This document shows positions 3,382-63,290 of a DNA stretch of 64,000 nt, piece by piece. The number at the start of each line of letters is the position of its first letter. Position 1 is the stretch's first letter. This DNA comes from a virus. Under the pieces are notes generated by a model that had not been told where the DNA came from, did not search any database, and saw only the letters and a list, made by a program, of their open reading frames with translations. The stretch lies in IMG/VR virus record IMGVR_UViG_3300020724_000005; one strand, written 5' to 3'. The position numbers and the translations under genes are program-made.

Positions 3382-3386
3382 ATGTT

Positions 3387-42155: not shown

Positions 42156-42159
42156 GCTT

Positions 42160-42167
42160 ATAAATAT
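42160..42167 (-). promoter_or_regulatory. motif copy
   Basis: ATAAATAT, 4 nt upstream of ATG 42155. Confidence 0.3.
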
Positions 42168-45802: not shown

Positions 45803-45813
45803 ACTTTTATTTT

Positions 45814-46446: not shown

Positions 46447-47061
46447 TTGTAAACAGATGATCTCTGAAATTAACTTATGAATTCTAGAATATTTATCTAC
46501 TGATACAGAATGATCTATCGATTCTTTAAGCCCTTTTTTGCCTTCTTGGTGCATATAGGAACCGAAATTTGAGGGTTGCGAAACAAAATCCCACCCAATA
46601 AGATCTAAATCGTCTTCTACCTGCACCAATCCTTCTCCTATTTGTGTAACTGATCCCATAGCTCTTGATGATATACCCACTGAGAGGTTATTCTCAAACA
46701 GCGTCTTTAGGATGTTTCCGGATGGTGTAGGGAGTATTTCAACTCTGCCATATAGATCTTTGCCTTCCCACCATATTTCCATGATGTTGTGGCTTACGTT
46801 CTTTAAGTTGATGATGCTTGTTTCTGGATGGTCTAATTCTCCAAATGCTCTTCTTTCTTTTATAGGTCCTTCAGCATATTTCTGTGCTTGAGACATAAGG
46901 ATATCATGCGGATAGATTCGTTGATTTGCATTGGGAATATCAGCAGAAGACAGCTTACCGACAACTACCATATTACTATTTCCACGAAGTCCTTCTTTAA
47001 GGTGACTAAGAGGTTTAAATACTGAATACTCTATGAGAAGTTGTGGTTTCATATTATACAT
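46423..47061 (-). CDS. prohead core protease (T4 gp21-like)
   Basis: FGELDHPE and GISSRAMGS (His/Ser motifs). It sits between the core proteins and the scaffold, as in T4. Confidence 0.75.
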   Translation of the reverse strand: MYNMKPQLLIEYSVFKPLSHLKEGLRGNSNMVVVGKLSSADIPNANQRIYPHDILMSQAQKYAEGPIKERRAFGELDHPETSIINLKNVSHNIMEIWWEGKDLYGRVEILPTPSGNILKTLFENNLSVGISSRAMGSVTQIGEGLVQVEDDLDLIGWDFVSQPSNFGSYMHQEGKKGLKESIDHSVSVDKYSRIHKLISEIICLQSGICCLS

Positions 47062-50256: not shown

Positions 50257-53200
50257 TTATTCTTTGATGTTTCTTTCATCTAAAAGCCCACCTGTTTCAC
50301 TTTGGTTCTCAAACAGGGACACCTTCTTGCCCGCAAACATCTTTGCCATGCTGTCTTTATTCTGAAGATACACCGCTTTAGTGCTTTCAAAGCTCAATGG
50401 TCCACCTTTATATTCTACCTTATCTTCTCCGCGTTCCATGCTAGATCCCATTCCTTTTCTGCCTATTGGATCTCTACCAAACGCACTTTTGTCAGTTCCG
50501 ATGATCGATTTGTACTTTTCAGGCCTTCCTGGCATCTTCACTGGCTCATTAGGATTTGTTTCGTTGTAGCCGTCTGGAACGTCTAAGGTAGGTTTTCCGC
50601 CGTACAGTCCTGCTATCTGGGAAGGAGTTCCGTATGCTGTGCCTGACTCTAGAGGATCGTTTCCTTCTGTCTCTATCTGATCGTATCTGAATTTGTTCTT
50701 TTGGTCTTCGATGATCATGTCTTGGAGCTCACCAAACGAATCAGGAGAAAGGTGGAATATGTTTTCCCAGATGTACTCTTTAGGAAGTATCGCTCCTTCA
50801 ACAGCTTGAGTTGCCAGATCGATCTTCTCTTTGAACATCGCTATCCTCTCCTGGTCGTATATGATGGACGGATTTGTCAGGCTCAGGGTGAAGTTTGCCA
50901 TGCCTTCGTCTGTGTATCCGTTTGCATATAGATGAACTAGAGCTATCTTCTTGAGCTCTGATACTATGATCCTCTGCAGTCTTTCTACAGTACGAGCAAA
51001 CCTGATGTCTTCTGCCGCGAGGGTAGCTTTACCTGTGAGGTCTTTTTCGTATCCCATGAACGCCTTTGGTATCTTCAACGCTGCGAATAGCTTTTCTCTA
51101 AAGTATATGACGTCTTCTATCGCATTGTACTCCAGGCCTTTCGCCGTATCTATCCTTGTAGACGTATCATTGCCTCTTACAGGAACTATGAAGTCTTCTA
51201 GTAGGTTCTGTTGGTTGTACTTTAGGTTGTATTGTCCTGTGTTAGGATCGATCAATGGAGTCTTCTTCATCTTGTTGATCATCCTCTGAACGTAGTTCTC
51301 TACCTCGTTTGGTGGTATCGCTCCAACGTTCGTGTAGAATATCCTTCTCTCTGGGGCACGAGTGATCCTATGGATCAACATGGCATCTTCTATGAGCGTA
51401 TACTGTTTAAACAGCTTTCTTGCTGGCTCTAGGTATGATCTGCCATAGGGAAGATAGTTGACGTCTCCAATGAGCCTGAAATGTGCCATCTCGTAGTTAT
51501 CAAACCACACTCCTGGGTCTTGGTTGTTGAAAGCCGAAGTGTATCCAGATGTTGCTGCCAATGCTGCGTTAGGATCAAACTTGAATCTCACCTCATTAGG
51601 GTTGTTCGGGTTGTATCCTTCCTGGCGCACTATGTTGTATGCTGAAAATGGAATTACATTATACACGCCAAATTTATCAGAGATCTCCATCTTTAAGTAG
51701 AAGTCCCCGTACTTGCACATGTTTCTTATCCAAGACCATAGATTGAACTCTATGTTGAGCACTGAGTAGAATAGGTTTTCTAAGATCTTCTGTATGTTTT
51801 CGTCTGAAGACCTTATAGTCAGTACTTGACCCTGTTCATTTTTGAGTGTACAATTGTGTGTATATATCTTAGACCCGTCTTTAGCCTCTATAGCAAATAT
51901 GTGATTGTCTCCTGCATTTACTATGTCATAAACATCTTCATATCCGCATTCTTCTATTGATACAACTTTATGATTAGATGATTTTGCAAAATCTTCTAAA
52001 GTTGAATATCCATTACCCAACACTATTCTTCTCAACTTATTGATAGTAATAGAATTACTATTACAAAAATCTGATACTAAAAATCTCTTTCCCTCTTTGT
52101 AAGTATTATTGCAATATGACCTAAATTTAATTATAGTATCAGTGCTATGGTTAGAAAGTATTTTATTTATTAGGGTTTTAGTATTATTACACTTATACAC
52201 AGCAAAGAGATCTCTAATTATTTTTCTCCACTCAAATGTTATAATATTAAGTTCTTTTTGTATATCTCCTAAAATATTTTTGTGGGGATCATTTTTTATT
52301 CTATCTATTATATATGCTAAGTTTATAGATTTTTTTCTAGTAGTTTGTGTATTATATCTACCATTTTTTTCTTTTGAAATTTTATATCCTTTTCCATACA
52401 TTCCATTTTTAGATCCACGGTGTCCATATACGATTTTTCTTTCTTCTGAACTCAAATTTTCCATGTAACTTTTCATGGAATCTGATTTCTTTTTCAAAAA
52501 AGACTGCTTATCTACATTTTCCCAAAAATGTTTTTGTCCTTCCATTAATTTTACGTAGTAATCATTTTTTTTGGGCGGATCTGAATTTATACTAACCCAA
52601 AGGTTTTTATTATATTCAGCATGAATTTTATTATGCTCATTCCATCCTACCCACTTTAGAAAATTAGGATTATTATTTCTTTTATCAAAAGAGTCATGGT
52701 GTACTACTGGTTTTTCTTTTGCTGGAATCTGATTCCTCTGTTCTTTTAAAAATGTAACCTGATTTGCTACTATCCTATGAGTATATTCGAATTTATCCCC
52801 ACTCCATATTTTTTCATATCCAGGCATGCTAGTTCCTTCTGATATTTTAGTAGAAAGAGCTAATATACTAGTACTAATTTTTATGTCACTAGTAGTTATT
52901 TGAGATCCACTGCTATCTATCCAAATATGATTAGATGTAGCTTTTACTTCAGTTCCATCATCGAAGGTTATTTTATATACCCTTTTCTTCCCATTATAGG
53001 CCACTTTTTCAGCTTTTACTGGACGGAATTCATTAGTTTTTTCATCTAAACCATATATCCATATGTCTTTTGCTCCTGAGTCGTGCAATTCTTTTATGGT
53101 CTTCTTAGTTCCATCTAAAAGAGGTATAACTGTATCTGCTCCAAGACATTCATCCGCTATAATATCCAATGCTGAAGCTATGATTGCATCTGTATCCATA

Positions 53201-53457
53201 GAATCATAATCAGCGTAGATCTGTACTCTCGCTGACTGATAGTTCATCGCCAGATTCAGGTTGACACCATACGCAGTAGAGGTGGTATAAACTTTGTGGA
53301 ACCTATCAATAAGAGAATTAGTCTGAATAACACCATTGGATTGGATATTATCTGTATCCATGACCGAAAGCATATTGCCCCCATCATTGCGGATAATAAC
53401 GTCCGTACTAAATAGTCTGCGGAGTGTAGAAAATAAATTCTGTTGTATTTCTGCCAT
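50257..53457 (-). CDS. portal protein (T4 gp20-like) interrupted by a 432-aa intein
   Basis: The extein parts YADYDSMDTDAIIASALDIIADE and CTLKNEQGQVLTIRS...LWSWIRNMCKYGDFYLK are gp20-like. The gene is adjacent to the terminase. Confidence 0.8.
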   Translation of the reverse strand: MAEIQQNLFSTLRRLFSTDVIIRNDGGNMLSVMDTDNIQSNGVIQTNSLIDRFHKVYTTSTAYGVNLNLAMNYQSARVQIYADYDSMDTDAIIASALDIIADECLGADTVIPLLDGTKKTIKELHDSGAKDIWIYGLDEKTNEFRPVKAEKVAYNGKKRVYKITFDDGTEVKATSNHIWIDSSGSQITTSDIKISTSILALSTKISEGTSMPGYEKIWSGDKFEYTHRIVANQVTFLKEQRNQIPAKEKPVVHHDSFDKRNNNPNFLKWVGWNEHNKIHAEYNKNLWVSINSDPPKKNDYYVKLMEGQKHFWENVDKQSFLKKKSDSMKSYMENLSSEERKIVYGHRGSKNGMYGKGYKISKEKNGRYNTQTTRKKSINLAYIIDRIKNDPHKNILGDIQKELNIITFEWRKIIRDLFAVYKCNNTKTLINKILSNHSTDTIIKFRSYCNNTYKEGKRFLVSDFCNSNSITINKLRRIVLGNGYSTLEDFAKSSNHKVVSIEECGYEDVYDIVNAGDNHIFAIEAKDGSKIYTHNCTLKNEQGQVLTIRSSDENIQKILENLFYSVLNIEFNLWSWIRNMCKYGDFYLKMEISDKFGVYNVIPFSAYNIVRQEGYNPNNPNEVRFKFDPNAALAATSGYTSAFNNQDPGVWFDNYEMAHFRLIGDVNYLPYGRSYLEPARKLFKQYTLIEDAMLIHRITRAPERRIFYTNVGAIPPNEVENYVQRMINKMKKTPLIDPNTGQYNLKYNQQNLLEDFIVPVRGNDTSTRIDTAKGLEYNAIEDVIYFREKLFAALKIPKAFMGYEKDLTGKATLAAEDIRFARTVERLQRIIVSELKKIALVHLYANGYTDEGMANFTLSLTNPSIIYDQERIAMFKEKIDLATQAVEGAILPKEYIWENIFHLSPDSFGELQDMIIEDQKNKFRYDQIETEGNDPLESGTAYGTPSQIAGLYGGKPTLDVPDGYNETNPNEPVKMPGRPEKYKSIIGTDKSAFGRDPIGRKGMGSSMERGEDKVEYKGGPLSFESTKAVYLQNKDSMAKMFAGKKVSLFENQSETGGLLDERNIKE
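51853..53148 (-). mobile_element. contiguous intein with an HNH endonuclease domain in the portal gene
   Basis: It starts CLGADTVIPLLDG (Cys codon 53146..53148), has block B ATSNHIW and an HNH region VVHHDSFDKRNNNPNFLKWVGWNEHNKIH, and ends VYDIVNAGDNHIFAI...IYTHN followed by C+1 (51850..51852). The core is AT-rich. Confidence 0.85.
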
Positions 53458-53467
53458 ATTTTATTTT

Positions 53468-54895
53468 TTATCCCAATAGCCAATTCAGATCCTCTATAGT
53501 ATTTCCATTTACTGTAGTGATCTCCATTTGATATGGATTATTATTTATAAAGTTATTTGTATTGTAAACTGGGGATTCTCCCATCTTCTTCATCCCGTCT
53601 AATGTAGCATATGTTAAACTCTCTGCCGTCCTTCTGAATCTTATAGAAGAGTCTCTCATATACATCGATATCGCAAAAGACATCACAAGGTCATCATTGT
53701 ATCCTTGCATTGCTTGTGGTTTTGAGTTCTTCCATATGAACACTCTCAATTCTTCTAAAAGCCTAAGTGATCTTATCTTTACTTGCTTTGTCTCTATGAA
53801 GTCTCTCATCCTCTCTATAATAAGAGGTCTTGATGCTGACGACATAGTGAATCCAGGAACTAATGAGTCTGTTGCTCCGTATCTTTCAAGCCTCTTCTCA
53901 TTGTCTAAACTAAAATCTGTCCTATGCGAGTAGTGTAGGTTACTGTAACCGCTCTCGATCAAAGTCTGAAGAACGTCCCAACCTATGTTTGCATTCTCCA
54001 CAGCGACCAAGGCATTGTTGTACTCGAAAGCCGCTGCCAGTATTGTCTTTGCAAACTCTCTGGTGTCGCACTGGGCTTGGTATTCTGCTACCTGGGTCAA
54101 TGTATCTACGTCTATGATGTGGAACGCGGAATAGTCAGCTCCGTCTCCTCTTGCTACGTCTGCACATAACAGATAGGTTTTTAGAGGGCTTGGGTACTCC
54201 CATATCCACATTGCCTTATCGAGTCCCCTTCTTTCGATAGGCTCTAAGACCATGTTTTCTTCATACCAACTTAGTATGTCTGGGATGATGACAGTATTAC
54301 CCGATGAACTAAAGTCACAATCACACTCTTGCGCAGCCATTCTAACTCCAAGGTCTTGATCTTGTCTATCTCTCCAAGGTTGACTTCTTTCTGGGTGTAC
54401 TGTCCAAGGAAGTGATACTGGTACAAAGCTGTTTTCTTTTTTCTGCGCTTTTATATATGTTTTGTGGAACCAATTACCTACGCCGTTTGGAGTCGATAAT
54501 GCTATACATTTACCACCGGTTGCCAAGGTTTGCTGAGCAGAACCAAAAAGATCCTCTGCATTATCTATGAAAGCGCAATTATGACTAACTACATCATTTG
54601 TATAATATTCGTTTTTATTCTTTACGTTTACTAAATCATAAACTTCGAATTCTTCTTCTATAATATCAATAGAAATAATAGAAATATTCCCAAATAGTAT
54701 ATCGCCTACTCTCAATAAACACGCTTCTAGAAACTCACCATTTGGAAATTTAAGACAATGCCCCTCTGTACACTTTATAAAAGAATTATTTGATAATTTT
54801 ATATGAAAAATGATATTAGTAATCTTTGATAAAATTCCATCAAAATCACTAAACCCGGTTGGAGTTAAAATTTCATATTTAGTATTTTTTATCAT
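53468..54895 (-). CDS. terL: large terminase C-terminal fragment preceded by a 106-aa split-intein C-fragment
   Basis: MIKNTKYEILTPTGF...CTEGHCLKF (block B)...EVYDLVNVKNKNEYYTNDVVSHN, then C+1 AFIDNAEDLF, which completes the gp17-like MDE|CAFI Walker B region. A nuclease domain follows. Confidence 0.85.
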   Translation of the reverse strand: MIKNTKYEILTPTGFSDFDGILSKITNIIFHIKLSNNSFIKCTEGHCLKFPNGEFLEACLLRVGDILFGNISIISIDIIEEEFEVYDLVNVKNKNEYYTNDVVSHNCAFIDNAEDLFGSAQQTLATGGKCIALSTPNGVGNWFHKTYIKAQKKENSFVPVSLPWTVHPERSQPWRDRQDQDLGVRMAAQECDCDFSSSGNTVIIPDILSWYEENMVLEPIERRGLDKAMWIWEYPSPLKTYLLCADVARGDGADYSAFHIIDVDTLTQVAEYQAQCDTREFAKTILAAAFEYNNALVAVENANIGWDVLQTLIESGYSNLHYSHRTDFSLDNEKRLERYGATDSLVPGFTMSSASRPLIIERMRDFIETKQVKIRSLRLLEELRVFIWKNSKPQAMQGYNDDLVMSFAISMYMRDSSIRFRRTAESLTYATLDGMKKMGESPVYNTNNFINNNPYQMEITTVNGNTIEDLNWLLG

Positions 54896-55599
54896 TTTAA
54901 AAATTGTCTCATCGATTTTAATAACTGGGGTTGTTCTTCATAATTAATCATATTCGCATTTTTCTTAAACCAACTATCTGAAATTATTACCATTTTATAA
55001 GAATTATCTTTACACCATGATAATGCGCTTTTAAATTTAATTATATTTTTAGGATCCGATTTTAATTTTGATGGTTTTATTTCATATAAAATTTTTTTGT
55101 CAAAATCAACGAAATCTACTATATAAGATGATACTTTATTTTGATATTCATATTGTATTCTTACTTTTTCGTAGTCTAGATGTTGATTTAATAGAAAAAA
55201 TACAGCTTCCCAATTACTTCTGAATTTTTTTATGTCATCTTTAATTTTAATATAGCTTTTCCAATTTGTCCAACTATTAGTTATGCATGGCGTAAATTTA
55301 CCTTCTTTTATAAGTCTCTTTAATCTTATTGAATTCTGTCTTCGTGCTTCTATTACTCTAGGACTACTCTTAATCTTTTCTTTATGTTCCTGTGTCGATA
55401 CAGTTTTTTTATTTGATTCTACTCTTTTTCTTTTTGTTTCTTCTGAATCTTTATGGTGATTATGTGAAGTCCAACATGGTTGAGTACAGTATTTTTTATT
55501 TTCTTTTTTTGTTAAATATCTCTTTCCACATCCGGAACATTCTTTTTCTATAGGTTCTTTCCAATTCCACGAGTGTTTTTTAATATTCTCTATAAACAT
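54892..55599 (-). CDS. homing endonuclease with an N-terminal zinc finger and a PD-(D/E)xK-like C-terminal domain
   Basis: CSGCGKRY...YCTQPCW; NUMOD3-like HKDSEETKRKRVES; C-terminus YIVDFVDFDKKILYEIKPSKL. It is very AT-rich, and its ATGA overlaps the IntC start. Confidence 0.65.
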   Translation of the reverse strand: MFIENIKKHSWNWKEPIEKECSGCGKRYLTKKENKKYCTQPCWTSHNHHKDSEETKRKRVESNKKTVSTQEHKEKIKSSPRVIEARRQNSIRLKRLIKEGKFTPCITNSWTNWKSYIKIKDDIKKFRSNWEAVFFLLNQHLDYEKVRIQYEYQNKVSSYIVDFVDFDKKILYEIKPSKLKSDPKNIIKFKSALSWCKDNSYKMVIISDSWFKKNANMINYEEQPQLLKSMRQFLK

Positions 55600-55610
55600 T
55601 TGCTTTTACT

Positions 55611-55618
55611 ATAAATAT
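55611..55618 (-). promoter_or_regulatory. GATATTTAT(A/T)A-type motif copy
   Basis: ATAAATATC, 11 nt upstream of the HEG ATG 55599. It overlaps the stop of the terL N fragment. Confidence 0.4.
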
Positions 55619-56217
55619 CAATAATGTCCAGATAATTTATTTTTTAATTCATTTATTGTTGTCTTTTCTATTTCGCCAGTATTTTTATTCTTAATTAATA
55701 TTTCAGTATCTCCAGTTACACATTCATCCATCACAAGAAGAGATACTGCTTCAGAACGAGCTGAGTCGCTTGCTCCTGACACTGCCTTTATCTGAGAACC
55801 GTTTGTGAGTCGTAAACTTAGCCTGTTGTCTTCAGTAGCTCCTATCTTCAACCAAGCTGGAAGGTTATCGTATGCAAATCGTACCTTTGTGACCATATTC
55901 TTGGCCGTCTCTTGCTTTGTTGCTATGACCAGTACGTTCTTATCTTTGTGGAATACCATGAGCCAGAGCGCATAAGCAGACACCAACGTTGATATCCCCA
56001 GCTGTCTTGACTTGTTTATTATTACATTTTGGTCTCCTGAAAAGACCTTTAGCATGGATTCTTGGAATGGGTATAGATCAAAGAGCATCCTGCCTCTTTG
56101 AGGGTGTTGGATCATGTAATACTTCTTCATGAAATATACCGGGTCTGTGGCGCATTTCACAAATTCTTCTCGTATCTTATCTTTGATAGTGGATTGCCTC
56201 GTAATCGGTTCGGGCAT
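55618..56217 (-). CDS. terL: large terminase N-terminal fragment (ATPase Walker A/B) fused to a 34-aa split-intein N-fragment
   Basis: KSRQLGISTL (Walker A) and LLVMDE (Walker B), followed by CVTGDTEILIKNK...SGHY and a stop. Confidence 0.85.
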   Translation of the reverse strand: MPEPITRQSTIKDKIREEFVKCATDPVYFMKKYYMIQHPQRGRMLFDLYPFQESMLKVFSGDQNVIINKSRQLGISTLVSAYALWLMVFHKDKNVLVIATKQETAKNMVTKVRFAYDNLPAWLKIGATEDNRLSLRLTNGSQIKAVSGASDSARSEAVSLLVMDECVTGDTEILIKNKNTGEIEKTTINELKNKLSGHY

Positions 56218-56230
56218 AAAACTTTTGTTT

Positions 56231-56238
56231 ATAAATAT
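56231..56238 (-). promoter_or_regulatory. motif copy
   Basis: ATAAATAT, 13 nt upstream of the terL ATG 56217. It is the left arm of the inverted repeat 56229..56265. Confidence 0.4.
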
Positions 56239-56321: not shown

Positions 56322-56780
56322 TTAAGTAGTTTCTTCAGGAGTCTCTGGTTTTTCCTTTGGTTTTTCTTCTTTTTTTGTTGGAAGCTCTTCTGACCTTGGT
56401 CCTTCTTCGCTCTCTGGACCTTCAGACTTTGATTTTGCTCCATATCTCTGTATCCTATTGATCGCCATAGTAGCCCTTTGGATGTCTCCTATGTTCATCA
56501 GATAGTAGCGCTTGCCTTGCACACCTGCTTCGTACGCTTTTCCCATGAACGTCATAAAGAAGTACTGATTGTTTTTTAGCAGTATCTTGAAGGTGGTCGG
56601 CTTTCCAGATATTATGAATATTCCATCCAAGTATTCTTCAAAGTTATCTCCCATCAAAGTTATTAGGTTCTTGTTGAGCCTTTTATACTTTCTCAGGATG
56701 TAGCCCATAGGATCTGCATCAAACTCTGGATTTGTGTGATCTTCATGTACTTCTTTGAGTATGTCTATCAGTTTTATCAT
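56322..56780 (-). CDS. leader-bearing protein (MIKLIDILKE...)
   Basis: 152 aa with N-terminus MIKLIDILKE and a Glu/Pro/Lys-rich C-terminal tail. Confidence 0.6.
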   Translation of the reverse strand: MIKLIDILKEVHEDHTNPEFDADPMGYILRKYKRLNKNLITLMGDNFEEYLDGIFIISGKPTTFKILLKNNQYFFMTFMGKAYEAGVQGKRYYLMNIGDIQRATMAINRIQRYGAKSKSEGPESEEGPRSEELPTKKEEKPKEKPETPEETT

Positions 56781-57040
56781 TATTTTTCTATTTGTCTTAA
56801 TGCCACTATAAGATCGAGTATTTTATCAGAAATATAATCTTCATAATCTGAACTTACTTCTTTTCCCCTAAGATAATAATCTTTCGTATAATCATCTATC
56901 TCAATATCATAAAAATCTTTTAGATCATCTATGATATCTTTATCTAACTTTTTAGATATTCTTAATTTTACTATAATATCATCTAAAGATCTTATAAGAT
57001 TATCTATATCTTTATTACTTTCTAAAAGTTTATTTGACAT
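56780..57040 (-). CDS. hypothetical acidic protein
   Basis: 86-aa, AT-rich ORF whose stop is coupled to the next start. Confidence 0.45.
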   Translation of the reverse strand: MSNKLLESNKDIDNLIRSLDDIIVKLRISKKLDKDIIDDLKDFYDIEIDDYTKDYYLRGKEVSSDYEDYISDKILDLIVALRQIEK

Positions 57041-57407
57041 ACCCTCTATCTTTTAGTTTTGATATGATATTGTCTACCTTATTTGATATCTTTTTATAGT
57101 GAGATTTCATTATAGATTCATCAAAAGATTCATCTACTCTAGATATTGGTTCTATACTATACCCAAAATAATTTTCTTTATCCTCTGGATTATAATATCG
57201 AGTTCTAGTTGTAAAAATATAATCATCAACTCTAGGATCATAGTCTTCTACTCCACGTTCCTCCCATTCATTTGATTCAACCCAACTTTCTGCTTCGTCT
57301 TTTGAATCAAAAATTCTGCTTGTAGGGAATTCTTCATCTCCATAATCTGTAAATACTACTCTGTATTTTATTATACTCTCTTTGGGTATGTCTATGAGTT
57401 TTATCAT
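57030..57407 (-). CDS. leader-bearing protein (MIKLIDIPKE...)
   Basis: 125 aa with N-terminus MIKLIDIPKE. Confidence 0.6.
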   Translation of the reverse strand: MIKLIDIPKESIIKYRVVFTDYGDEEFPTSRIFDSKDEAESWVESNEWEERGVEDYDPRVDDYIFTTRTRYYNPEDKENYFGYSIEPISRVDESFDESIMKSHYKKISNKVDNIISKLKDRGYVK

Positions 57408-57418
57408 TGTAATTATGT

Positions 57419-58018
57419 TTAAGCAACTTCTGATGCATATTCTGCTACGCTATGCATGTAATCACTAGCAAGAGTTATATATGCTGCAACCCATCCAGGA
57501 AGCTCTGTTCCTGGTTCTACCATGCTGTAAAGCTTTGATGCGTTAGATATCAGATCTTTAAGTTCAGCTCTTGCCATAGTGGCTTGGTGTCCAGAATCAG
57601 GTTTCCCCCAAACATCTCCACACTGGGCGCATTTTCCATTTACCATTTCCTCTCCACAGTCTGTGCAAACCTCTTCTGCTATTGGGTGTGTTGATTTTAT
57701 TGCATTCATATCCTGATTGTCAAATGATGGCTGCTTAAAATATCTTCTTTTTTCATTTCCGTAGTATATCTCTGGAGTCTCTGCTGGATTTGGGGTAAAC
57801 TCCTTTAAATTCCTCATCTTTGGAATAAAATGATCTTTTATCCAGTCCTGAGTCTTTTGGCTAAGCTGTTTTCTTGGAAAGTCTCTCTTAAACAGATTTT
57901 GAAGATGTAATCCTCGCTTTTTTAACTCTTTTTCTACGTAATCAGGAACATCTACTTCCATTTTTTTAGGATTTAGTGCTTCTGCTAAAAGTTTTGTTAT
58001 GAGGCTCTTTTTTGTCAT
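57419..58018 (-). CDS. hypothetical Cys-rich protein
   Basis: I chose ATG 58018 (MTKKSLITKLLAE) rather than the track's GTG 58048. It has a CTDCGEEMVNGKCAQCG zinc-ribbon-like motif. Confidence 0.5.
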   Translation of the reverse strand: MTKKSLITKLLAEALNPKKMEVDVPDYVEKELKKRGLHLQNLFKRDFPRKQLSQKTQDWIKDHFIPKMRNLKEFTPNPAETPEIYYGNEKRRYFKQPSFDNQDMNAIKSTHPIAEEVCTDCGEEMVNGKCAQCGDVWGKPDSGHQATMARAELKDLISNASKLYSMVEPGTELPGWVAAYITLASDYMHSVAEYASEVA

Positions 58019-58037
58019 ATCTGCTGTTTTATATAGT

Positions 58038-58045
58038 ATAAATAT
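58038..58045 (-). promoter_or_regulatory. GATATTTAT(A/T)A-type motif copy
   Basis: ATAAATATC, 19 nt upstream of ATG 58018. Confidence 0.4.
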
Positions 58046-58284
58046 CACTTAGGTTCGAACCAATCACTACACCATTTTCTAGGATCTTTTATGTCCATCA
58101 CAGCGTTTCCGTTCCATGCCTCGTAGTATTGGTTTCCACAGATGTGTTGGTCATTCTCGTAGCTGTAGTACTTGCATACTGCGCAGCTAAAGCCATCAGG
58201 ACTGTACATGAAAGGTTCATGGTTTGTTGGGAGAGTTATGTCCCCTTTGATCTCTTCTTTAAGTAAGTCTGTAAGCTTTATCAT
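58045..58284 (-). CDS. leader-bearing small Cys-rich protein (MIKLTDLLKE...)
   Basis: 79 aa with N-terminus MIKLTDLLKEE. Confidence 0.6.
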   Translation of the reverse strand: MIKLTDLLKEEIKGDITLPTNHEPFMYSPDGFSCAVCKYYSYENDQHICGNQYYEAWNGNAVMDIKDPRKWCSDWFEPK

Positions 58285-58288: not shown

Positions 58289-59053
58289 TTAGTTTTTTCT
58301 TCCCCACTGTATGCCTTCTTTTCCGCTTTGCAACCACATCTTTACGTAGTTCTTTTGTCTTTCTGTGGCTTTGTATCCTTGCTTTTTTATAGAGTTCATG
58401 ATCCCATCTAGGTAATCATCTTGCTTGCTCCTCTTTGCTATGTTGTTCACTCTGTTCCACTCTTGCTCTCCAAACGGCTGTAAATTCTTCCAATCTTCTT
58501 TTAGAAAGTCTGATAGCTTTATCGTCTTGCTCTCTTTAATGCTAGCAAGAGCTTTTAATTCTTTGTTTGCGTCGTCTATTTTATAGAGGTATTTTTTTAT
58601 CTTTGTAGAAAAGAAACTTACTATCTTATTGAGGTACAATTTGACTTTATCTGCAGTTGATGCTTCAGATAGTTTTCCTATGGTAAATCTAGTGGATACT
58701 TTTCTTACAGTAGACTCTTCTTCTTCTAGCTTCTTACAAACTGCTTTTGTAGCTTCATTCAGCTTGGTTAGCGCATATTCATATGCTTTTTTATATTTGT
58801 GAACTTGAGACTCATATGCCGGTTGCTTAATAGTTATTATGTAATACTCTGAAACCGCTGTTTTTTCTTCAAGCTGCTTCATTGTTTCAAACATCGGAGC
58901 TAGATCTTTTGCAAATTCACCATATTTTTTTTCCATAACTTTCATTCTGTCAGACAGCTCATCTATCTCATTTTGTAGATGGTAGAATTTTTCTAGTTGT
59001 GCAACTATTGCTGGATCCTGGATCTCAATTTCTTTAAGGTAGTTTTTTTTCAT
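58289..59053 (-). CDS. hypothetical coiled-coil protein with an internal leader-like motif
   Basis: 254 aa. Residues 177-186 read TIKLSDFLKE, encoded by ACG ATA AAG CTA... at 58496..58525. Confidence 0.55.
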   Translation of the reverse strand: MKKNYLKEIEIQDPAIVAQLEKFYHLQNEIDELSDRMKVMEKKYGEFAKDLAPMFETMKQLEEKTAVSEYYIITIKQPAYESQVHKYKKAYEYALTKLNEATKAVCKKLEEEESTVRKVSTRFTIGKLSEASTADKVKLYLNKIVSFFSTKIKKYLYKIDDANKELKALASIKESKTIKLSDFLKEDWKNLQPFGEQEWNRVNNIAKRSKQDDYLDGIMNSIKKQGYKATERQKNYVKMWLQSGKEGIQWGRKN

Positions 59054-59959: not shown

Positions 59960-60559
59960 TTATTTTAAAAGTGAATAATACTCATTGAAGTGTTTGATTC
60001 TATCGTCATTTCCTATAGTCCCACCGTTCACTCTCTTTGTGATCTTGGTGACTGTATCAACTGTTGCGCCTTCGTCTGCTATCTTGTGAAGACCGTTTTT
60101 GTGGAAGAACCACGCTGCAGAAGCCAAAGGGTATTTAGTTGCTACCAGATCAGGACTAGCCACACAATCTTCGTTTATTGCTTTTGAAAACGCAGCGTAG
60201 TTGTCTTTTCCTGTCAGTTGAATACAGCCGCGACCACGGAATTTGTATCCTTCTCCAGATGATTCAGGACCGTTGCCCATGCGGCCTCCATAGACTAAAT
60301 TAGCTATCTTTTCGGGTTTTCTTTCATACTCCAAAGCTTTTGCGTCTGTTGGGAAATACTTGCCGAATATGCTACGAAGTCCTTTTGCTCCGTAATTCAG
60401 ATTCTCGTTTAACACTTTGAAACCACCTGATTCGTGTCCTGCTTGAGCAAGGAAATGCGCTAAACGCAGCGGGGTGTTCAATTCAAACTTTGCCATCGTA
60501 TCTGGCAGTTGAGCGATGATGTTGTCTGGAACGTGTCCTTTTAAACTCTCTAGATTCAT
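59960..60559 (-). CDS. endolysin, glycoside hydrolase family 19 (chitinase-like)
   Basis: LAHFLAQAGHESGGF, YKFRGRGCIQLTGKDNY. Confidence 0.8.
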   Translation of the reverse strand: MNLESLKGHVPDNIIAQLPDTMAKFELNTPLRLAHFLAQAGHESGGFKVLNENLNYGAKGLRSIFGKYFPTDAKALEYERKPEKIANLVYGGRMGNGPESSGEGYKFRGRGCIQLTGKDNYAAFSKAINEDCVASPDLVATKYPLASAAWFFHKNGLHKIADEGATVDTVTKITKRVNGGTIGNDDRIKHFNEYYSLLK

Positions 60560-60574
60560 ACTTTATTTTTGTTT

Positions 60575-61282
60575 TTATTTTTTAAAATAGTAGGCGTGTA
60601 TCATGTCTGCCGTCATTCCAAGCACTGCTGCTACAAGACCGCCTTCTATGAATGCCCTTGTGGTTTTGTACCTGGTAGCTTTCTCTTCATATTCAAGCTT
60701 GTACTTATAGTCCTCAAGTTTCATCTCTGTCGTGGTCTTGTATAGTTCAAACTTACCTTGTACATCTGTCTTTGACATATCTACCCTCAGTCTTTCAAAG
60801 TCTAACCGGTAGTTCATAGCCTTGATGGTATCATTCAGACTAGCAACATTCTGGGTCAGCTTGTAGTTCTTATCGGCTATCAAGTTCAGTTCACCTTCAA
60901 GATCTCTGTTCTTTATCCATACAGCATGACTATAATCACTCAAGAAAAGATTGGCAGCATTTAAAGTATCTACCAACCTATGGAAACTCTTCATGCTATC
61001 TTTGAACATCGTAAACCTTCTGTTCATGTCCTTTCCTTGCTGTACTGTCATCACTACTACTGTATCATCATCCAGGATCCTAGTCATGGGGTATTGCGCC
61101 TGTGATTTAGGAGTCGGAAGCGCTGTCGGTAATTGAGCAGTATTCAGGGCAGGTGTAGCCGTAACACTATTCGTTATCGCCGGAACTGGGTTTGCTGTCG
61201 CTATTTGGTTCGTTGACTGGCAGTAGGTTGAAATGCTTATTAACATTAACAACAGTGTCACCAAGCTTCGCTTTAAGTTCAT
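60575..61282 (-). CDS. lipoprotein-signal plus C-terminal-TM protein (spanin-like)
   Basis: MNLKRSLVTLLLMLISISTYC|QS, a Pro-rich linker, a coiled coil, and the C-terminal TM segment GGLVAAVLGMTADMI. Its start is embedded 116 nt inside 61167..61580. Confidence 0.45.
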   Translation of the reverse strand: MNLKRSLVTLLLMLISISTYCQSTNQIATANPVPAITNSVTATPALNTAQLPTALPTPKSQAQYPMTRILDDDTVVVMTVQQGKDMNRRFTMFKDSMKSFHRLVDTLNAANLFLSDYSHAVWIKNRDLEGELNLIADKNYKLTQNVASLNDTIKAMNYRLDFERLRVDMSKTDVQGKFELYKTTTEMKLEDYKYKLEYEEKATRYKTTRAFIEGGLVAAVLGMTADMIHAYYFKK

Positions 61283-61580
61283 TGTTTTCTTTTTTTAATA
61301 CTTTGACTTCTGTATGTAAAACTTCTATATTCTTTGCAGTTTTTTCGACTTTTGTGATGATCATAGAATCGCTTTTTATGCTCTTCTGTCCCATAGATAT
61401 CACGTTCTTTTTACTCTTTTCCAGTATGGTATCTACAGGTAATACGTCTGCTTGAGGAGCTGATACCGTAGTTGAGTCTTTGTGGGAGATGTATTTATCT
61501 TTCAAAGACATCAACTGATTTCTTCCAAAAAAGGCTGCTGCAGCTAAAGCTGATATCGCCATCACTATTTTCTGTTTCAT
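61167..61580 (-). CDS. N-terminal TM plus coiled-coil protein (i-spanin-like)
   Basis: MKQKIVMAISALAAAAFF, then the coiled coil EVLHTEVKVLKKENNELKAKL. Confidence 0.45.
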   Translation of the reverse strand: MKQKIVMAISALAAAAFFGRNQLMSLKDKYISHKDSTTVSAPQADVLPVDTILEKSKKNVISMGQKSIKSDSMIITKVEKTAKNIEVLHTEVKVLKKENNELKAKLGDTVVNVNKHFNLLPVNEPNSDSKPSSGDNE

Positions 61581-61582
61581 TC

Positions 61583-61924
61583 CTACTTTATTTTACCGAG
61601 TTGTTGTAACACCGCTATTTTGGATTCAGCCGCTGCTAAAGTGCTATCAGATCTTCTAAGTTGATTGCTTAAGTTCTCTACTCTGACTTCTAACGCCTGT
61701 ATCTTTTTGCTTTGGTTTTCTATCTGGCCAGTATAATTCATCTTGCCATCTACGTATAAATATCCGATCGCGATGAGAACTATGAATAACATCCCTTTTA
61801 CAGGATCTTTACTGAAGTCCTTGAAGCTTATCGGCATCAATGAAGGTGCTTTGACAGCAGTCTCTTTGGGCACAACAGCTTTAGGCTTTGCAGCCTTAGG
61901 CTTTACAGTTTTAACAGTAGTCAT
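61583..61924 (-). CDS. single-TM coiled-coil membrane protein (holin/antiholin or spanin-like)
   Basis: 113 aa with a Lys-rich N-terminus, TM segment MLFIVLIAIGYLYV, and a coiled-coil C-terminus. Confidence 0.4.
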   Translation of the reverse strand: MTTVKTVKPKAAKPKAVVPKETAVKAPSLMPISFKDFSKDPVKGMLFIVLIAIGYLYVDGKMNYTGQIENQSKKIQALEVRVENLSNQLRRSDSTLAAAESKIAVLQQLGKIK

Positions 61925-61940
61925 TTAGATAGGGTTTGAT

Positions 61941-61948
61941 ATAAATAT
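61941..61948 (-). promoter_or_regulatory. GATATTTAT(A/T)A-type motif copy
   Basis: ATAAATATC, 16 nt upstream of ATG 61924. Confidence 0.4.
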
Positions 61949-61966
61949 CGAAGTGTTTTCGTAACC

Positions 61967-62437
61967 TTATGATTTTACAAGCTTAGTCTTATCTACAAAA
62001 TCTGCTCTTCTTACTGATGGTATCTTTCTGACTCTGTCTTCTATTGTTTTTATAGTACTTGTGTCAAAAGTTTCAAATGGGGCTGGGTCTATCTTGATGC
62101 TGATGTCCACAACATACTTTTTTAACCTTGCTGCCGATGGCTGACGGTTATTTGTAACACGTACGATGGTAACTCCAGTTAGAGCCCTGATGTCAGAGAG
62201 GATGTCTGCAAGTGATCTCTTTGTAGTATCTGCCATGAGTCTGCCTTCTATCTGATAGATCTTAGGACTGAATGTTTCTTTGACAGTAGAATTTATATCT
62301 TTAGCCGCTTTCACAGCTTTTTTATATGCTTTACTGCCTTTACGAGCAGGTTTCTCTCCCCTAGCTCTTTTTGCTCGGATGTTCGCCCAGAGTCCAGGCT
62401 TTTCTATTTCCTTCAGTATGTCTATGAGCTTTATCAT
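61967..62437 (-). CDS. leader-bearing protein (MIKLIDILKE...)
   Basis: I moved the start to ATG 62437, which forms an ATGA overlap with the stop of 62434..62691. The N-terminus is MIKLIDILKEIEKPGLWANIRAKRARG. Confidence 0.6.
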   Translation of the reverse strand: MIKLIDILKEIEKPGLWANIRAKRARGEKPARKGSKAYKKAVKAAKDINSTVKETFSPKIYQIEGRLMADTTKRSLADILSDIRALTGVTIVRVTNNRQPSAARLKKYVVDISIKIDPAPFETFDTSTIKTIEDRVRKIPSVRRADFVDKTKLVKS

Positions 62438-62691
62438 GTCTTTTTTATCTTTATCTTTACGGATCCGGTTCCTTTTATAGCACGATGCCAAACCCCTCTT
62501 GGTATAAATATCTCTCCTTTCATCTTTACAGGTATCTGGTTGTCCATTTGAAACTTCCAGTCTGTGTCTCCTACCACCTCTATCAACCTATCTTCCTGAT
62601 CTCTGTGCCACTTAAGCTCTATAGGATCTATGTTCTCATCGAACTCTCTGATCAGGACTTCATCTTCCAAAATGTCTTTATATGGCCTCAT
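62434..62691 (-). CDS. hypothetical small protein
   Basis: 85-aa ORF. Confidence 0.45.
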   Translation of the reverse strand: MRPYKDILEDEVLIREFDENIDPIELKWHRDQEDRLIEVVGDTDWKFQMDNQIPVKMKGEIFIPRGVWHRAIKGTGSVKIKIKKT

Positions 62692-62693
62692 GT

Positions 62694-63290
62694 CTACCAG
62701 TATCCTGAAAAGTTACTCTTCAATCCCAACAGCTTTGCGTATCGCGGAAGTCTGCACGCCCAGTACCCAGCATGTGTCTTGTCTTTCTTCTGAGCGCATT
62801 TGTGTCTCGCTGCGAAGCTCTTTCTTGCTGCTGGGTTGTTGATCTTTGCGCTAAGTCCTGTCGTGTCTCCAAAGCTGACCTTCTTTATTCCGCCTGTCTT
62901 TGGATTCCTTACGAACACATAGAACTTCTTAGATCCTCCTCTGTGTGGTTTGTTCAAAGCCGGCTGTTTCTTTTTTGACTTTGCCTTTGCTTCGAGTAAA
63001 AAATCTCTCGTCATCGGATAGTCTAGCGGAACTGTAATGCCTTTGTAGTTTCCGGTCAATCCTAGGTCAGTTTCTGTCAGGTACCATATATCTTCATCGC
63101 CCAACGACAAAAGTCCCCTATTTAGCAACTGGCGCGCTTCTGTGAACAGGGCTACGAAGTTTGCTGACTGAGGACGATATATGTTTTCGTTCAAGTCGAT
63201 GGAATTGTCCAAATGGTAAGCAAGCCCCTCAGATATAAGGAGCTTATTTGCAGTTTCATGTAAAGTTATCTTGCCTCTATTGCAACACAT
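62694..63290 (-). CDS. conserved hypothetical protein
   Basis: 198 aa. KKFYVFVRNPKTGGIKKVSFGD...FAARHKC...AGYWACRL resembles a domain I recall from marine phages and giant viruses. Confidence 0.45.
   Translation of the reverse strand: MCCNRGKITLHETANKLLISEGLAYHLDNSIDLNENIYRPQSANFVALFTEARQLLNRGLLSLGDEDIWYLTETDLGLTGNYKGITVPLDYPMTRDFLLEAKAKSKKKQPALNKPHRGGSKKFYVFVRNPKTGGIKKVSFGDTTGLSAKINNPAARKSFAARHKCAQKKDKTHAGYWACRLPRYAKLLGLKSNFSGYW

What the first reader, a model, noticed from the sequence alone, without database searches (positions are those of the whole stretch)
56322..58284. Family of otherwise unrelated proteins sharing the N-terminal decapeptide M(I)KLIDLLKE: candidate capsid-targeting/propeptide signal
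Six ORFs begin with nearly the same 9-10 residues. They are MIKLIDLLTE (2566..3381), MKLIDLLIE (41838..42155), MIKLIDILKE (56322..56780), MIKLIDIPKE (57030..57407), MIKLTDLLKE (58045..58284) and MIKLIDILKE (61967..62437). After residue 10 the proteins show no similarity to each other. The codons differ synonymously (Lys AAG/AAA, Leu CTC/CTG/CTT, Asp GAT/GAC), so the peptide is what is conserved, not the DNA. The length, the position and the terminal hydrophobic-x-Glu closely parallel the T4 capsid targeting sequence of internal proteins (MKTYQEFIAE), which the gp21 prohead protease removes after (L/I)-x-E. A gp21-like protease (46423..47061), a gp22-like scaffold and a gp23-like capsid protein are all present in this window. 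If correct, these are packaged and ejected proteins (early effectors or anti-defence factors) marked by a phage-specific address tag.
Basis: partly seen in the sequence, partly recalled or inferred. Interest (0 to 1): 0.85.

Follow-up and report, generated by a model that had tools for sequence, protein, structure and literature searches.

The report
Shared capsid-address tag on phage proteins
Six otherwise unrelated proteins of this T4-like phage, and hundreds more in its uncultured aquatic relatives, start with the same ten amino acids, which most likely act like phage T4's capsid-targeting leader: an address label, cut off by the head protease, that loads enzymes into the virus head for injection into the host.

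Summary
Six minus-strand ORFs start M(I)KL[IT]D[IL][LP]xE, and their bodies are unrelated. Two neighbouring genes carry internal or degenerate copies.

- **Spread:** the same decapeptide heads at least 119 ORFs, falling into about 52 unrelated families, in at least 115 viral contigs. These contigs share this window's terminase, portal and protease. Cellular genomes (596 Gb) essentially lack the tag.
- **Level of conservation:** it is at the peptide level. Synonymous sites vary and upstream DNA is not conserved. Conservation stops after Glu10.
- **Fixed positions:** L4, I/L7, L8 and E10 match the targeting and processing positions mapped in the T4 IPIII leader, and the L/I-x-E site of the gp21 protease.
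- **Head proteins:** the window encodes a gp21-family (S77) protease. Its N-terminus, KPQLLIE|Y, aligns with T4 gp21 EPQLLIE|T. The capsid protein starts with a clade-conserved 10-mer, MNLVNSLLQE|S.
- **Cargo:** Zeta-toxin kinases, an ART-PolyVal ADP-ribosyltransferase, GNATs, 2H phosphoesterases and an HExxH protein. These are effector-type domains.

The best reading is a T4-type capsid-targeting, protease-cleaved leader. The evidence is circumstantial because there is no proteomics. I classify it as a new member of a known kind, unusually standardised and cargo-rich.

The parts
56322..56780 (-). Tagged gene C (152 aa), MIKLIDILKE|VHEDH...; tag codons at 56751..56780. Function of the body is unknown.
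   Evidence: A tagged homolog occurs in L111. The L066 homolog has a 4-aa insertion but keeps ...IIIKE|VHEDH. No Pfam, PHROG or PDB hit.
57030..57407 (-). Tagged gene D (125 aa), MIKLIDIPKE|S...; tag at 57378..57407. Pro at position 8 is a private substitution.
   Evidence: The 97%-identical relative L111 has MIKLIDILKE on the homolog. No informative family hit.
58045..58284 (-). Tagged gene E (79 aa), MIKLTDLLKE|E...; tag at 58255..58284. Small Cys-rich protein.
   Evidence: All 12 homolog clusters carry tag variants (MISLIKILQE, MIKLTDLISE and others). P0012 has the tag internally after a fused 47-aa domain. The AF2 model is low-confidence (pLDDT 60.7) and places the tag in a separate helix.
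61967..62437 (-). Tagged gene F (156 aa), MIKLIDILKE|IEKPGLWANIRAKRARGEKP...; tag at 62408..62437. Basic N-terminal region followed by an alpha+beta domain.
   Evidence: Residues 9-57 match phrog_11180. Tagged homologs occur in L007, L066 and L067.
41838..42155 (-). Tagged gene B (105 aa), 9-residue variant MKLIDLLIE|D...; tag at 42129..42155. Lies immediately downstream of the capsid gene.
   Evidence: L186 and L113 carry tagged ORFs with a similar body motif (IDPETG/IDPVTG), seen by eye, not by blastp.
2566..3381 (-). Tagged gene A (271 aa), MIKLIDLLTE|K...; tag at 3352..3381. The body is a putative zinc metallopeptidase.
   Evidence: 18 homolog clusters, all tagged; the motif E-H-E-L-x-H-x-x-D-P-K is invariant, as is E-F-D-A. 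AF2 pLDDT is 90.9 overall, with residues 1-10 at 61 and later blocks at 89-97. The top fold hits are minimal metallopeptidases but are not significant.
58496..58525 (-). Internal tag copy TIKLSDFLKE|D at residues 177-186 of ORF 58289..59053 (254 aa), with 68 residues after it. It is either a remnant of a gene fusion or an internal cleavage site.
   Evidence: PSSM score 15.1 bits; coordinates. P0012 shows the same arrangement.
57419..58018 (-). Gene p199. Residues 71-197 align with residues 8-141 of proteins that start MIKLSQFIKE|FTG. It has a degenerate internal tag KMRNLKE|FTP (57800..57820) and a new tag-like N-terminus MTKKSLITKLLAE|A (57980..58018).
46423..47061 (-). Prohead protease of the T4 gp21 family (Peptidase_S77), the presumed enzyme that removes the tag. 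Its N-terminus is MYNMKPQLLIE|Y.
   Evidence: Pfam 6e-24 and phrog_207 7e-47. BLASTP against T4 gp21 gives 1e-20 and aligns KPQLLIEY with EPQLLIET. The N-terminus M-x-K-Q-[LV]-L-I-E|Y is conserved in 69 relatives.
42243..43955 (-). Major capsid protein (gp23 family). It has a tag-format N-terminal decapeptide MNLVNSLLQE|S (43926..43955) and a predicted maturation site ...QLVTE|TSAATGG after residue 61.
   Evidence: Pfam Gp23 5e-75. The N-terminus M-x-N-L-V-x-S-L-L-x-E|S is conserved across 80 loci. BLASTP places the E61 region next to T4 gp23 FLTE|AEIGG.
43994..45529 (-). Very acidic 511-aa protein encoded between the protease and capsid genes, with 15 [LI]-x-E sites. It is the presumed scaffold or core protein and a candidate docking partner for the tag.
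   Evidence: Position and composition. The family is conserved in 76 of 80 head modules. One relative's homolog starts MATNRDLLKE|A. It has no similarity to T4 gp22.

Best explanation
The decapeptide M-I-K-L-x-D-[IL]-L-x-E is most likely a T4-type capsid targeting sequence that doubles as a protease site.

Proposed mechanism, all steps inferred. The proteins are made late in infection. The N-terminal peptide, predicted as a short amphipathic helix with hydrophobic residues at positions 4, 7 and 8, docks each protein onto the scaffold core of the assembling prohead. The S77 (gp21-family) prohead protease then cuts after Glu10 at the site L/I-x-E. This releases the mature protein inside the capsid, and it leaves with the DNA at the next infection.

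Because the label is short and standardised, any gene that acquires it becomes cargo. That would explain why it heads about 52 unrelated families, many of them effector-type enzymes, arranged in tandem arrays in variable regions.

Shown here:
- the tag, its peptide-level conservation and its sharp boundary after residue 10;
- the distribution of the tag within one T4-type head lineage;
- the protease family;
- the homologous N-terminal LLIE on the protease;
- the conserved tag-format N-terminus on the capsid protein;
- the cargo domains.

Inferred: docking, cleavage, packaging, ejection and late expression.
For: **The tag**
1. Six window ORFs carry the tag, against about 0.004 expected by chance.
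2. At least 115 viral loci contain 119 exact-pattern ORFs, all at ORF starts. Their bodies form 52 blastp clusters.
3. About 120 further variants occur, some in tandem arrays.
4. Synonymous sites follow the codon usage of the gene bodies, upstream DNA is not conserved, and there is no Shine-Dalgarno sequence.
5. In 188 MIKL-anchored ORFs, I/L7 is 100%, L/I8 is 98% and E10 is 94%. Conservation then collapses.

**Parallels with T4**
6. Leaders verified from the T4 record: IPIII MKTYQEFIAE|A, gp24 MAKINELLRE|S (4 identical and 4 conservative positions against MIKLIDILKE), gp21 MNEPQLLIE|T.
7. In T4 IPIII, residues 4 and 7 determine targeting and residues 8 and 10 determine processing. The leaders are 10-19 aa long (PMC9026906). 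Cleavage is always after Glu (PMC5694885).

**Head genes**
8. The window has an S77 protease, a gp23 capsid protein and a gp20 portal.
9. The protease and capsid N-termini are conserved across 69-80 relatives in the same format, two hydrophobic residues then x-E at residues 8-11.
10. At least 29 tag-bearing loci carry the same terL, portal or protease lineage within about 14 kb.

**Specificity**
11. The tag is essentially absent from 596 Gb of cellular genomes.
12. Only 1 of 2,074 ORFs in MCP-selected head modules carries it, so it is not a general N-terminal bias in these phages.

**Cargo**
13. Domains found: Zeta_toxin (3 families), ART-PolyVal, GNAT, 2H/Acb1-like, hydrolase and methyltransferase, plus the HExxH protein wA. 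This overlaps the domain repertoire of proteins predicted or known to be packaged and injected (PMC5512222).
14. In the wA model the tag lies outside the fold, with pLDDT 61 against about 95.

**More distant relatives**
15. Immuto and Mel-JY01 keep looser leaders with the same two-hydrophobic-then-x-E ending on homologous families.

**Gene context**
16. The tagged genes C-F lie among late-type genes: lysozyme, nuclease and terminase.
Against: - No virion or prohead proteomics exists for this clade or for its nearest cultured relatives. Packaging, cleavage and ejection are therefore unproven.
- The presumed docking partner shows no similarity to T4 gp22.
- Expression timing is unknown.
- About 6% of MIKL tags lack Glu10. 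Window gene D has Pro at P3. The Mel-JY01 protease's own N-terminus ends LLID rather than LLIE.
- Positions 1-6 are conserved more strictly than a cleavage site needs, so an unidentified specific binding partner is implied.
- Tagged genes are numerous (about 17% of genes upstream of terL in tag-selected loci) and rarely lie inside the head module. This would also fit a non-virion signal.
- Two hydrophobic residues followed by x-E within the first 22 residues occurs by chance in roughly 1 protein in 8. That motif alone is therefore weak evidence outside the strict tag.
Confidence: 0.68

Rival explanations
1. The leader is a protease-removed propeptide with no address function. The prohead protease, or another protease, cuts after Glu10, for example to activate toxic enzymes at a set time as zymogens. 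The proteins are not loaded into capsids.
For: The L-x-E ending and the S77 protease are present. Many cargos are potentially toxic enzymes, such as Zeta toxin, ART and an HExxH protein. T4 Alt is cut at both ends, and a control role for its propeptides has been raised (PMC5694885).
Against: gp21-type proteases act inside the prohead (PMC5694885). Positions 1-7 are conserved far more than a cleavage site requires, including positions 4 and 7, which are targeting determinants in T4 (PMC9026906). Capsid and protease N-termini share the same format.
Confidence: 0.1
2. The decapeptide is a peptide signal unrelated to the head. It could be a degron, a docking helix for a phage or host factor, or a signal for membrane or compartment localisation. 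It would mark a regulon of host-takeover proteins that act inside the infected cell.
For: The tag has an amphipathic pattern. Tagged genes are numerous, arrayed in tandem in variable regions and rarely found in head modules. The cargo enzymes could act during the same infection. There is no proteomics.
Against: The fixed positions coincide with the T4 CTS and gp21 determinants. The tag co-occurs with one S77/gp23 head lineage. Conservation stops exactly after Glu, as expected for a cleaved unit. The peptide is too short and too charged to be a Sec, Tat or lipoprotein signal (sequence inspection).
Confidence: 0.12
3. The conserved element is the nucleic acid, not the peptide. It could be a recombination or cassette-shuffling junction, a homing-endonuclease site, or an AT-rich translation-initiation or repressor-binding region that happens to encode the peptide.
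For: The genome is rich in homing endonucleases and inteins. T4-type phages shuffle genes through conserved DNA cassettes (PMC2839356, PMC4122927). GAC is over-represented at Asp6 (53% against 16%), and the window's tags use ATA for Ile 13 times out of 14.
Against: Third-codon positions vary freely and follow genomic codon usage (Leu TTA/CTA/CTT/CTC/CTG, Ile ATT/ATA/ATC). Amino-acid substitutions are conservative. Upstream DNA is not conserved. Conservation ends at a codon boundary after Glu10.
Confidence: 0.04
4. The shared N-terminus is a passive relic. A short N-terminal module was copied along with gene starts during duplication and illegitimate recombination in hypervariable regions, and it has no function of its own.
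For: Tagged genes occur in tandem arrays, and fusions and fissions leave internal copies.
Against: A relic would decay. Instead the peptide is kept across capsid-protein divergence down to about 58% identity, with synonymous turnover. It is also kept, in looser form, on homologous families in immuto and Mel-JY01.
Confidence: 0.04

Closest known systems
Capsid targeting sequence (CTS) of T4 and T-even internal proteins IPI, IPII and IPIII (Mullaney & Black 1996; Repoila 1994; PMC9026906, PMC3012670, PMC12373910)
   Same: - An N-terminal leader of about 10 residues on otherwise unrelated proteins.
- Hydrophobic residues at positions 4, 7 and 8, an acidic residue at 6 and Glu at 10 (IPIII MKTYQEFIAE against MIKLIDILKE).
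- A gp21-family protease is encoded in the genome.
- The cargo genes are hypervariable, and in T-even phages they were found by searching for the leader.
   Different: - The leader sequence differs, and the phage lineage is distant (protease 29% identical to gp21; uncultured aquatic clade).
- The cargo is far larger and more varied: about 52 families in the sample, against about 10 small Ip families.
- It includes enzymes (Zeta-toxin kinases, ART, GNAT, 2H, HExxH) rather than small basic inhibitors.
- Packaging is not demonstrated here.
N-terminal propeptides of T4 gp24 (MAKINELLRE|S), gp21 (MNEPQLLIE|T), gp67, gp22 and Alt (ITE-6)
   Same: - Same length class, same ending (hydrophobic residue, x, Glu) and same protease family.
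- The gp24 leader shares 4 identical and 4 conservative positions with the tag.
- The gp21 LLIE aligns directly with the window protease.
   Different: - In T4 these leaders are on core head proteins. Here the same format also marks dozens of accessory proteins.
- A 10-residue similarity cannot establish homology.
- No gp24 homolog was identified in the window.
Polyvalent proteins of phages and conjugative elements (Iyer, Burroughs, Anand, de Souza & Aravind 2017, PMC5512222)
   Same: - Overlapping effector-domain repertoire: ART-PolyVal and a zincin-like HExxH peptidase domain (both described in that paper), plus kinase-type and other conflict-type enzymes.
- Predicted delivery through the virion to act early in infection.
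   Different: - Polyvalent proteins join 2-15 domains in one polypeptide.
- Here each domain is a separate small protein with its own address tag, so the arsenal is modular rather than fused.
Long propeptides of ejection proteins in giant phages phiKZ, 201phi2-1 and SPN3US (PMC5694885, PMC7411985)
   Same: A gp21-related protease cuts after Glu and removes N-terminal propeptides from packaged proteins.
   Different: Those propeptides are mostly longer than 100 residues, are not a shared standard sequence, and use A/S/G-x-E rather than L/I-x-E.

Membership tests
T4-type capsid targeting sequence / gp21-cleaved N-terminal leader | Short leader (10-20 residues) at the extreme N-terminus of the precursor | tested here: met
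   All six window tags, and all 119 exact-pattern tags found elsewhere, start at the initiator Met. Conservation ends after residue 10. Leader lengths are taken from PMC9026906 and PMC5694885.
T4-type capsid targeting sequence / gp21-cleaved N-terminal leader | The leader ends in the prohead-protease site (L/I)-x-Glu | tested here: met
   In 188 MIKL-start ORFs, L/I at position 8 is 98% and Glu at position 10 is 94%. Exceptions: window gene D has Pro8, and about 6% lack Glu10.
T4-type capsid targeting sequence / gp21-cleaved N-terminal leader | Hydrophobic determinants at positions 4 and 7 (targeting positions in IPIII) | tested here: met
   Leu4 is present in all six window tags, and I/L at position 7 is 100%. 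IPIII has Y4 and F7 (PMC9026906).
T4-type capsid targeting sequence / gp21-cleaved N-terminal leader | The genome encodes a gp21-family (Peptidase_S77) prohead protease and a gp23-type head | tested here: met
   Pfam: S77 6e-24, Gp23 5e-75, Portal_T4 4e-63. BLASTP of the window protease against T4 gp21 gives 1e-20. The same lineage is found next to tags in at least 29 loci.
T4-type capsid targeting sequence / gp21-cleaved N-terminal leader | The same leader on mature domains that are otherwise unrelated | tested here: met
   52 blastp clusters among 123 tagged proteins. In an alignment of 51 representatives, only 9 of the 10 tag positions are invariant and mean column identity is 8%.
T4-type capsid targeting sequence / gp21-cleaved N-terminal leader | A gp22-type scaffolding core to which the leader binds | tested here: inconclusive
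   An acidic 511-aa protein lies between the protease and capsid genes and is conserved in 76 of 80 head modules. It has no sequence similarity to T4 gp22: BLASTP E=5, hhalign probability 0.1%.
T4-type capsid targeting sequence / gp21-cleaved N-terminal leader | Physical incorporation into proheads, removal of the leader, and ejection into the host | not testable with these tools
   No cultured member carries the strict tag. No proteomics papers were found for Mel-JY01 or immuto.
Polyvalent proteins (PMC5512222) | Two to fifteen effector domains fused in one large polypeptide | tested here: not met
   Tagged proteins are 45-400 aa and mostly single-domain. Only the domain repertoire overlaps.
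Mobile regulatory DNA cassettes (PeSL-type) of T4-like phages (PMC2839356, PMC4122927) | A conserved intergenic DNA motif (promoter plus stem-loop) flanking the shuffled genes | tested here: not met
   No position-specific conservation in the 40 nt upstream of 98 non-redundant tags. Within the tag, synonymous sites vary.
Sec, Tat or lipoprotein signal peptides | A positively charged n-region followed by an uninterrupted hydrophobic h-region, with an A-x-A or lipobox cleavage site | tested here: not met
   The tag is 10 residues long with charged residues at positions 3, 6, 9 and 10 and no hydrophobic run (sequence inspection).

The most novel reading that the evidence does not exclude
A whole, globally distributed clade of uncultured T4-like aquatic phages (at least 593 contigs with a related capsid gene) has standardised one decapeptide as a plug-and-play label for capsid loading and cleavage. 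With it, these phages deliver a large and rapidly exchanging arsenal of separate effector enzymes: kinases of the Zeta-toxin type, ADP-ribosyltransferases, metallopeptidases, acetyltransferases and 2H phosphoesterases. This would be a modular alternative to fused polyvalent proteins. Internal copies of the tag would act as polyprotein-style cleavage sites. If so, the tag is a sequence-searchable marker for injected anti-defence and host-takeover proteins in metagenomes.
Probability: 0.45. Interest if true: 0.78.

Novelty: new member of a known kind. Interest (0 to 1): 0.66.

Why it matters
Injected phage proteins are the first phage products to meet host defences. T4 Ip1-3 each block a different GmrSD restriction enzyme (PMC12373910), and Alt reprograms the host RNA polymerase. 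Such proteins are hard to recognise from sequence alone.

If this decapeptide is a capsid address label, a simple pattern search yields hundreds of candidate injected effectors, in at least 50 families, from phages that have never been cultured. These include enzyme classes not previously seen as separately packaged cargo.

It would also show that the T4 CTS principle is ancient and widespread across gp21/gp23-type heads. It would point to a possible natural tag for loading foreign proteins into capsids of this phage lineage.

Tried and rejected
- **Cultured phages carrying the cargo.** tblastn of wE and wF against 50,697 phage records found nothing.
- **Proteomics or papers on the nearest cultured relatives.** Nothing was found for Mel-JY01 or immuto, and the tag string itself appears in no held paper.
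- **Function of the window cargos.** Pfam and PHROG searches on the six proteins and their neighbours were mostly empty. PDB sequence searches for C, D and F found nothing meaningful. The wE structure model is too weak to use (pLDDT 60.7). The wA fold search gave no significant hit; the top hits are minimal metallopeptidases at E of about 0.3.
- **Homology of the acidic 511-aa protein to T4 gp22.** Rejected at the sequence level.
- **T4 late promoter TATAAATA as a timing marker.** The motif is enriched (20 against 4.4 expected), but on the non-coding strand, so it reads TATTTATA upstream of genes. It cannot be equated with the T4 late promoter, and timing remains unknown.
- **Nucleic-acid-level explanation.** Rejected on the pattern of synonymous-site variation.
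- **A genome-wide bias toward MIKL starts.** Rejected: only 1 of 2,074 ORFs in MCP-selected loci has it.
- **The two-hydrophobic-then-x-E motif alone as a marker.** Considered too common by chance (about 13% of N-termini) to count as evidence without conservation across relatives.


Full report
**1. The observation**

All six ORFs exist at the stated coordinates, on the minus strand, and begin exactly as quoted. A position-specific score built from the eight residues KLIDLLKE was scanned over all six reading frames. It finds only these six at 25.8-28.8 bits, each immediately after an ATG. One weaker internal copy scores 15.1 bits (TIKLSDFLKE, 58496..58525, inside ORF 58289..59053). About 0.004 hits at 25 bits or more are expected in 128,000 six-frame positions.

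With the tag removed, the six proteins fall into six different blastp clusters. The uniform ATA for Ile (13 of 14) is only a mild bias, because ATA makes up 61% of Ile codons in this genome. The 60 nt upstream of the six starts show no common sequence.

**2. What kind of genome this is**

All genes in the window run on the minus strand. The head module is T4-type:
- Peptidase_S77 protease (46423..47061, 6e-24);
- Gp23 capsid protein (42243..43955, 5e-75);
- gp20-type portal with an intein (50257..53457);
- a large terminase.

The nearest cultured relatives by protease sequence are Microcystis phage Mel-JY01 (46%) and Flavobacterium phage immuto (43%). T4 and the cyanophages are much more distant. 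It has no detectable similarity to T4 gp22.

**3. The tag is clade-wide and heads many unrelated proteins**

I searched IMG/VR with a degenerate back-translation of MIKLID[ILFM]LKE. The same pattern in 596 Gb of cellular genomes gave four hits. Three are spurious short ORFs. One is a real tagged gene on a 2.9-kb, low-coverage contig mis-binned into a MAG. That scan serves as an empirical null.

All 119 matches in the viral loci lie at ORF starts. Their bodies form 52 clusters at E 1e-5. Window proteins A, C, D, E and F each have tagged homologs. An alignment of 51 representatives has only tag positions invariant and a mean column identity of 8%.

A relaxed scan of the same loci finds about 120 more variants. 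It also finds tandem arrays, for example eight tagged genes within about 3 kb in L034. In 29 loci that include terL, 17% of same-strand genes upstream of terL are tagged. These loci were selected for containing a tag, so that figure is biased upward.

By contrast, 80 head modules chosen by capsid-protein similarity contain a single tagged ORF among 2,074 ORFs. The tag is therefore not a general N-terminal bias of these phages. At least 29 tag loci carry terminase, portal or protease genes 44-97% identical to the window's. At least 593 viral contigs encode a related capsid protein.

**4. Peptide, not nucleic acid**

Across 98 non-redundant tags, third-codon positions follow the codon usage of the same genes: Ile ATT/ATA/ATC, Leu TTA/CTA/CTT/TTG, Lys AAA/AAG. 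Only Asp GAC is over-represented, at 53% against 16%. The 40 nt upstream are simply A/T-rich, with no conserved positions and no Shine-Dalgarno sequence.

Anchoring only on MIKL gives 188 distinct ORFs. In these, position 7 is I/L in 100%, position 8 is L/I in 98%, position 10 is Glu in 94% and position 6 is Asp in 82%. From position 11 onward no residue exceeds 31%. Such a sharp boundary is what a separable, cleavable unit would show.

**5. Link to the head protease and to T4**

I verified the T4 comparators from the T4 record:
- IPIII MKTYQEFIAE|A
- IPI ...STITE|A
- gp24 MAKINELLRE|S
- gp21 MNEPQLLIE|T
- gp67 MEGLIE|A
- gp22 MLKEQLIAE|A
- gp23 ...FLTE|AEIGG

In T4 these 10-19-residue leaders target proteins to the scaffold core, and gp21 removes them. 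In IPIII, residues 4 and 7 matter for targeting and residues 8 and 10 for processing (PMC9026906). Cleavage is always after Glu, and Alt is cut at ITE-6 and LTE-619 (PMC5694885).

The window tag has the same pattern: hydrophobic at 4, 7 and 8, acidic at 6, Glu at 10. It matches the gp24 leader at 4 identical and 4 conservative positions.

BLASTP aligns the window protease's KPQLLIEY with T4 gp21 EPQLLIET. It also places the capsid protein's QLVTE|TSAATGG next to gp23's maturation site. Across relatives, the protease N-terminus is conserved as M-x-K-Q-[LV]-L-I-E|Y in 69 loci. The capsid N-terminus is conserved as M-x-N-L-V-x-S-L-L-x-E|S, or as ...SLLE|S. One relative's scaffold homolog begins MATNRDLLKE|A.

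Two hydrophobic residues followed by x-E in the first 22 residues is common by chance, in roughly 1 protein in 8. For these head proteins the weight therefore comes from conservation across relatives and from the alignment with T4, not from the motif being present.

**6. More distant relatives**

Mel-JY01 carries looser versions: MIKLKSLL[KQ]E, MIKLMSLVTE and MGILKQLLKE. In immuto, genes upstream of terL that are homologous to tagged families carry different short leaders with the same ending. Examples are MRLLELLRE|AKEAIEDFAKTRG..., compared with MIKLTDILKE|VKETFENFA..., and ...NIIKE|ILSEKKADRC.... The principle is older than the strict decapeptide, which looks like a standardisation within one clade.

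**7. The cargo**

Pfam hits among the 51 representative families are Zeta_toxin (3), ART-PolyVal, GNAT, AAA_33, alpha/beta hydrolase, methyltransferase, weak 2_5_RNA_ligase2/Acb1, DUF6934 (4) and DUF5824.

Window protein A belongs to a family with an invariant E-H-E-L-x-H...D-P-K...E-F-D-A motif, which suggests a zinc metallopeptidase. Its AlphaFold model is confident (pLDDT 90.9). Residues 1-10 score 61 and the following blocks 89-97, so the tag is a flexible appendage outside the fold. The fold search gave no significant hit; the top hits are minimal metallopeptidases.

These domain types overlap those of polyvalent proteins, which are predicted or known to be packaged and injected (PMC5512222). 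Here, however, each is a separate small protein. No tag was seen on replication, tail or baseplate proteins.

Window genes C-F lie among late-type genes: a GH19 lysozyme, a secreted nuclease, membrane proteins and the terminase.

**8. Additional copies in the window**

Gene 57419..58018 aligns over residues 71-197 with proteins that start MIKLSQFIKE|FTG. It retains a degenerate internal tag (KMRNLKE|FTP, 57800..57820) behind a 63-residue extension, and the extension itself starts MTKKSLITKLLAE|A. ORF 58289..59053 has the internal TIKLSDFLKE|D. A homolog of protein E (P0012) likewise has SIKLADLLKE|A after a fused 47-residue domain. These are fusions that keep the tag, and the internal copies may be used as cleavage sites. 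Gene D's Pro8 is a private change, because its 97%-identical relative has Leu.

**9. Verdict**

The best explanation is a T4-type capsid targeting sequence that is also a protease site, marking packaged and probably injected proteins. I give it a confidence of about 0.68. The evidence is coherent but circumstantial: no proteomics exists, the docking partner is unidentified and expression timing is unknown.

The rivals carry the rest of the probability: a cleavage-only propeptide, a signal unrelated to the head, a nucleic-acid element, or a passive relic.

Relative to what is known, this is a new member of the CTS / internal-protein kind. It stands out for the strictness of the tag, its spread across a large uncultured clade, and the number and enzymatic nature of its cargo families.

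Noticed in passing
53468..56217 (-): The large terminase is a 'fractured gene'. The TerL N-half ORF (55618..56217) ends ...VMDE|CVTGDTEILIKN...SGHY*, which is an intein N-fragment. A free-standing endonuclease ORF follows (54892..55599, phrog_15427). Then ORF 53468..54895 starts with about 106 aa of intein C-part ending ...VVSHN|CAFID, followed by the TerL C-half. Relatives have an uninterrupted terL. This implies a split intein and protein trans-splicing.
   Followed up: partly
50257..53457 (-): The portal protein (1066 aa) is interrupted by an intein with an HNH-type endonuclease, at roughly residues 111-514. The Portal_T4 domain resumes at about residue 547.
   Followed up: no
window-wide, e.g. 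3386..3393, 42159..42166, 56230..56237, 58037..58044: The octamer TATAAATA occurs 20 times against 4.35 expected, mostly on the + strand. On the coding strand it therefore reads TATTTATA. In about 14 of the 20 cases it sits within about 30 nt (mostly 3-20 nt) upstream of a start codon, including tagged genes A and B, terL and several tail genes. It may be a promoter-like or leaderless-start element and is not the T4 late promoter orientation.
   Followed up: partly
48371..49354 (-) and 42243..43955 (-): The 327-aa head-module protein contains ...EEMSATGGGVGSGGATFTPGSGMQYA. This closely resembles the capsid protein segment TSAATGGVSNGATFTAGAGEQWA, which lies right after its predicted maturation site. 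An immuto ORF has a similar MSTTGAVGG after ...EVLEE. This may be a shared N-arm on a second shell or decoration protein.
   Followed up: no
45754..46446 (+): This is the only sizeable plus-strand ORF in the head module. It lies between the scaffold-like gene and the protease. At the DNA level (about 73%) it matches seg/mob-type homing endonuclease genes of T4-like coliphages.
   Followed up: no
57030..57407 (-), codon 8: Tagged gene D has Pro (CCC) where the clade consensus and the 97%-identical relative L111 have Leu. This puts Pro at P3 of the presumed cleavage site. It may be an inactivating mutation of the site or a sequencing error.
   Followed up: partly
L116-L119 (Mel-JY01 60276..62718): Microcystis phage Mel-JY01 has three adjacent paralogs that start MIKLKSLL[KQ]E or MIKLMSLVTE, followed by ISDRVWH[LV]T. 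This resembles by eye the 'YHFT' tagged families in the metagenomic contigs. It is a cultured system in which the leader hypothesis could be tested.
   Followed up: partly
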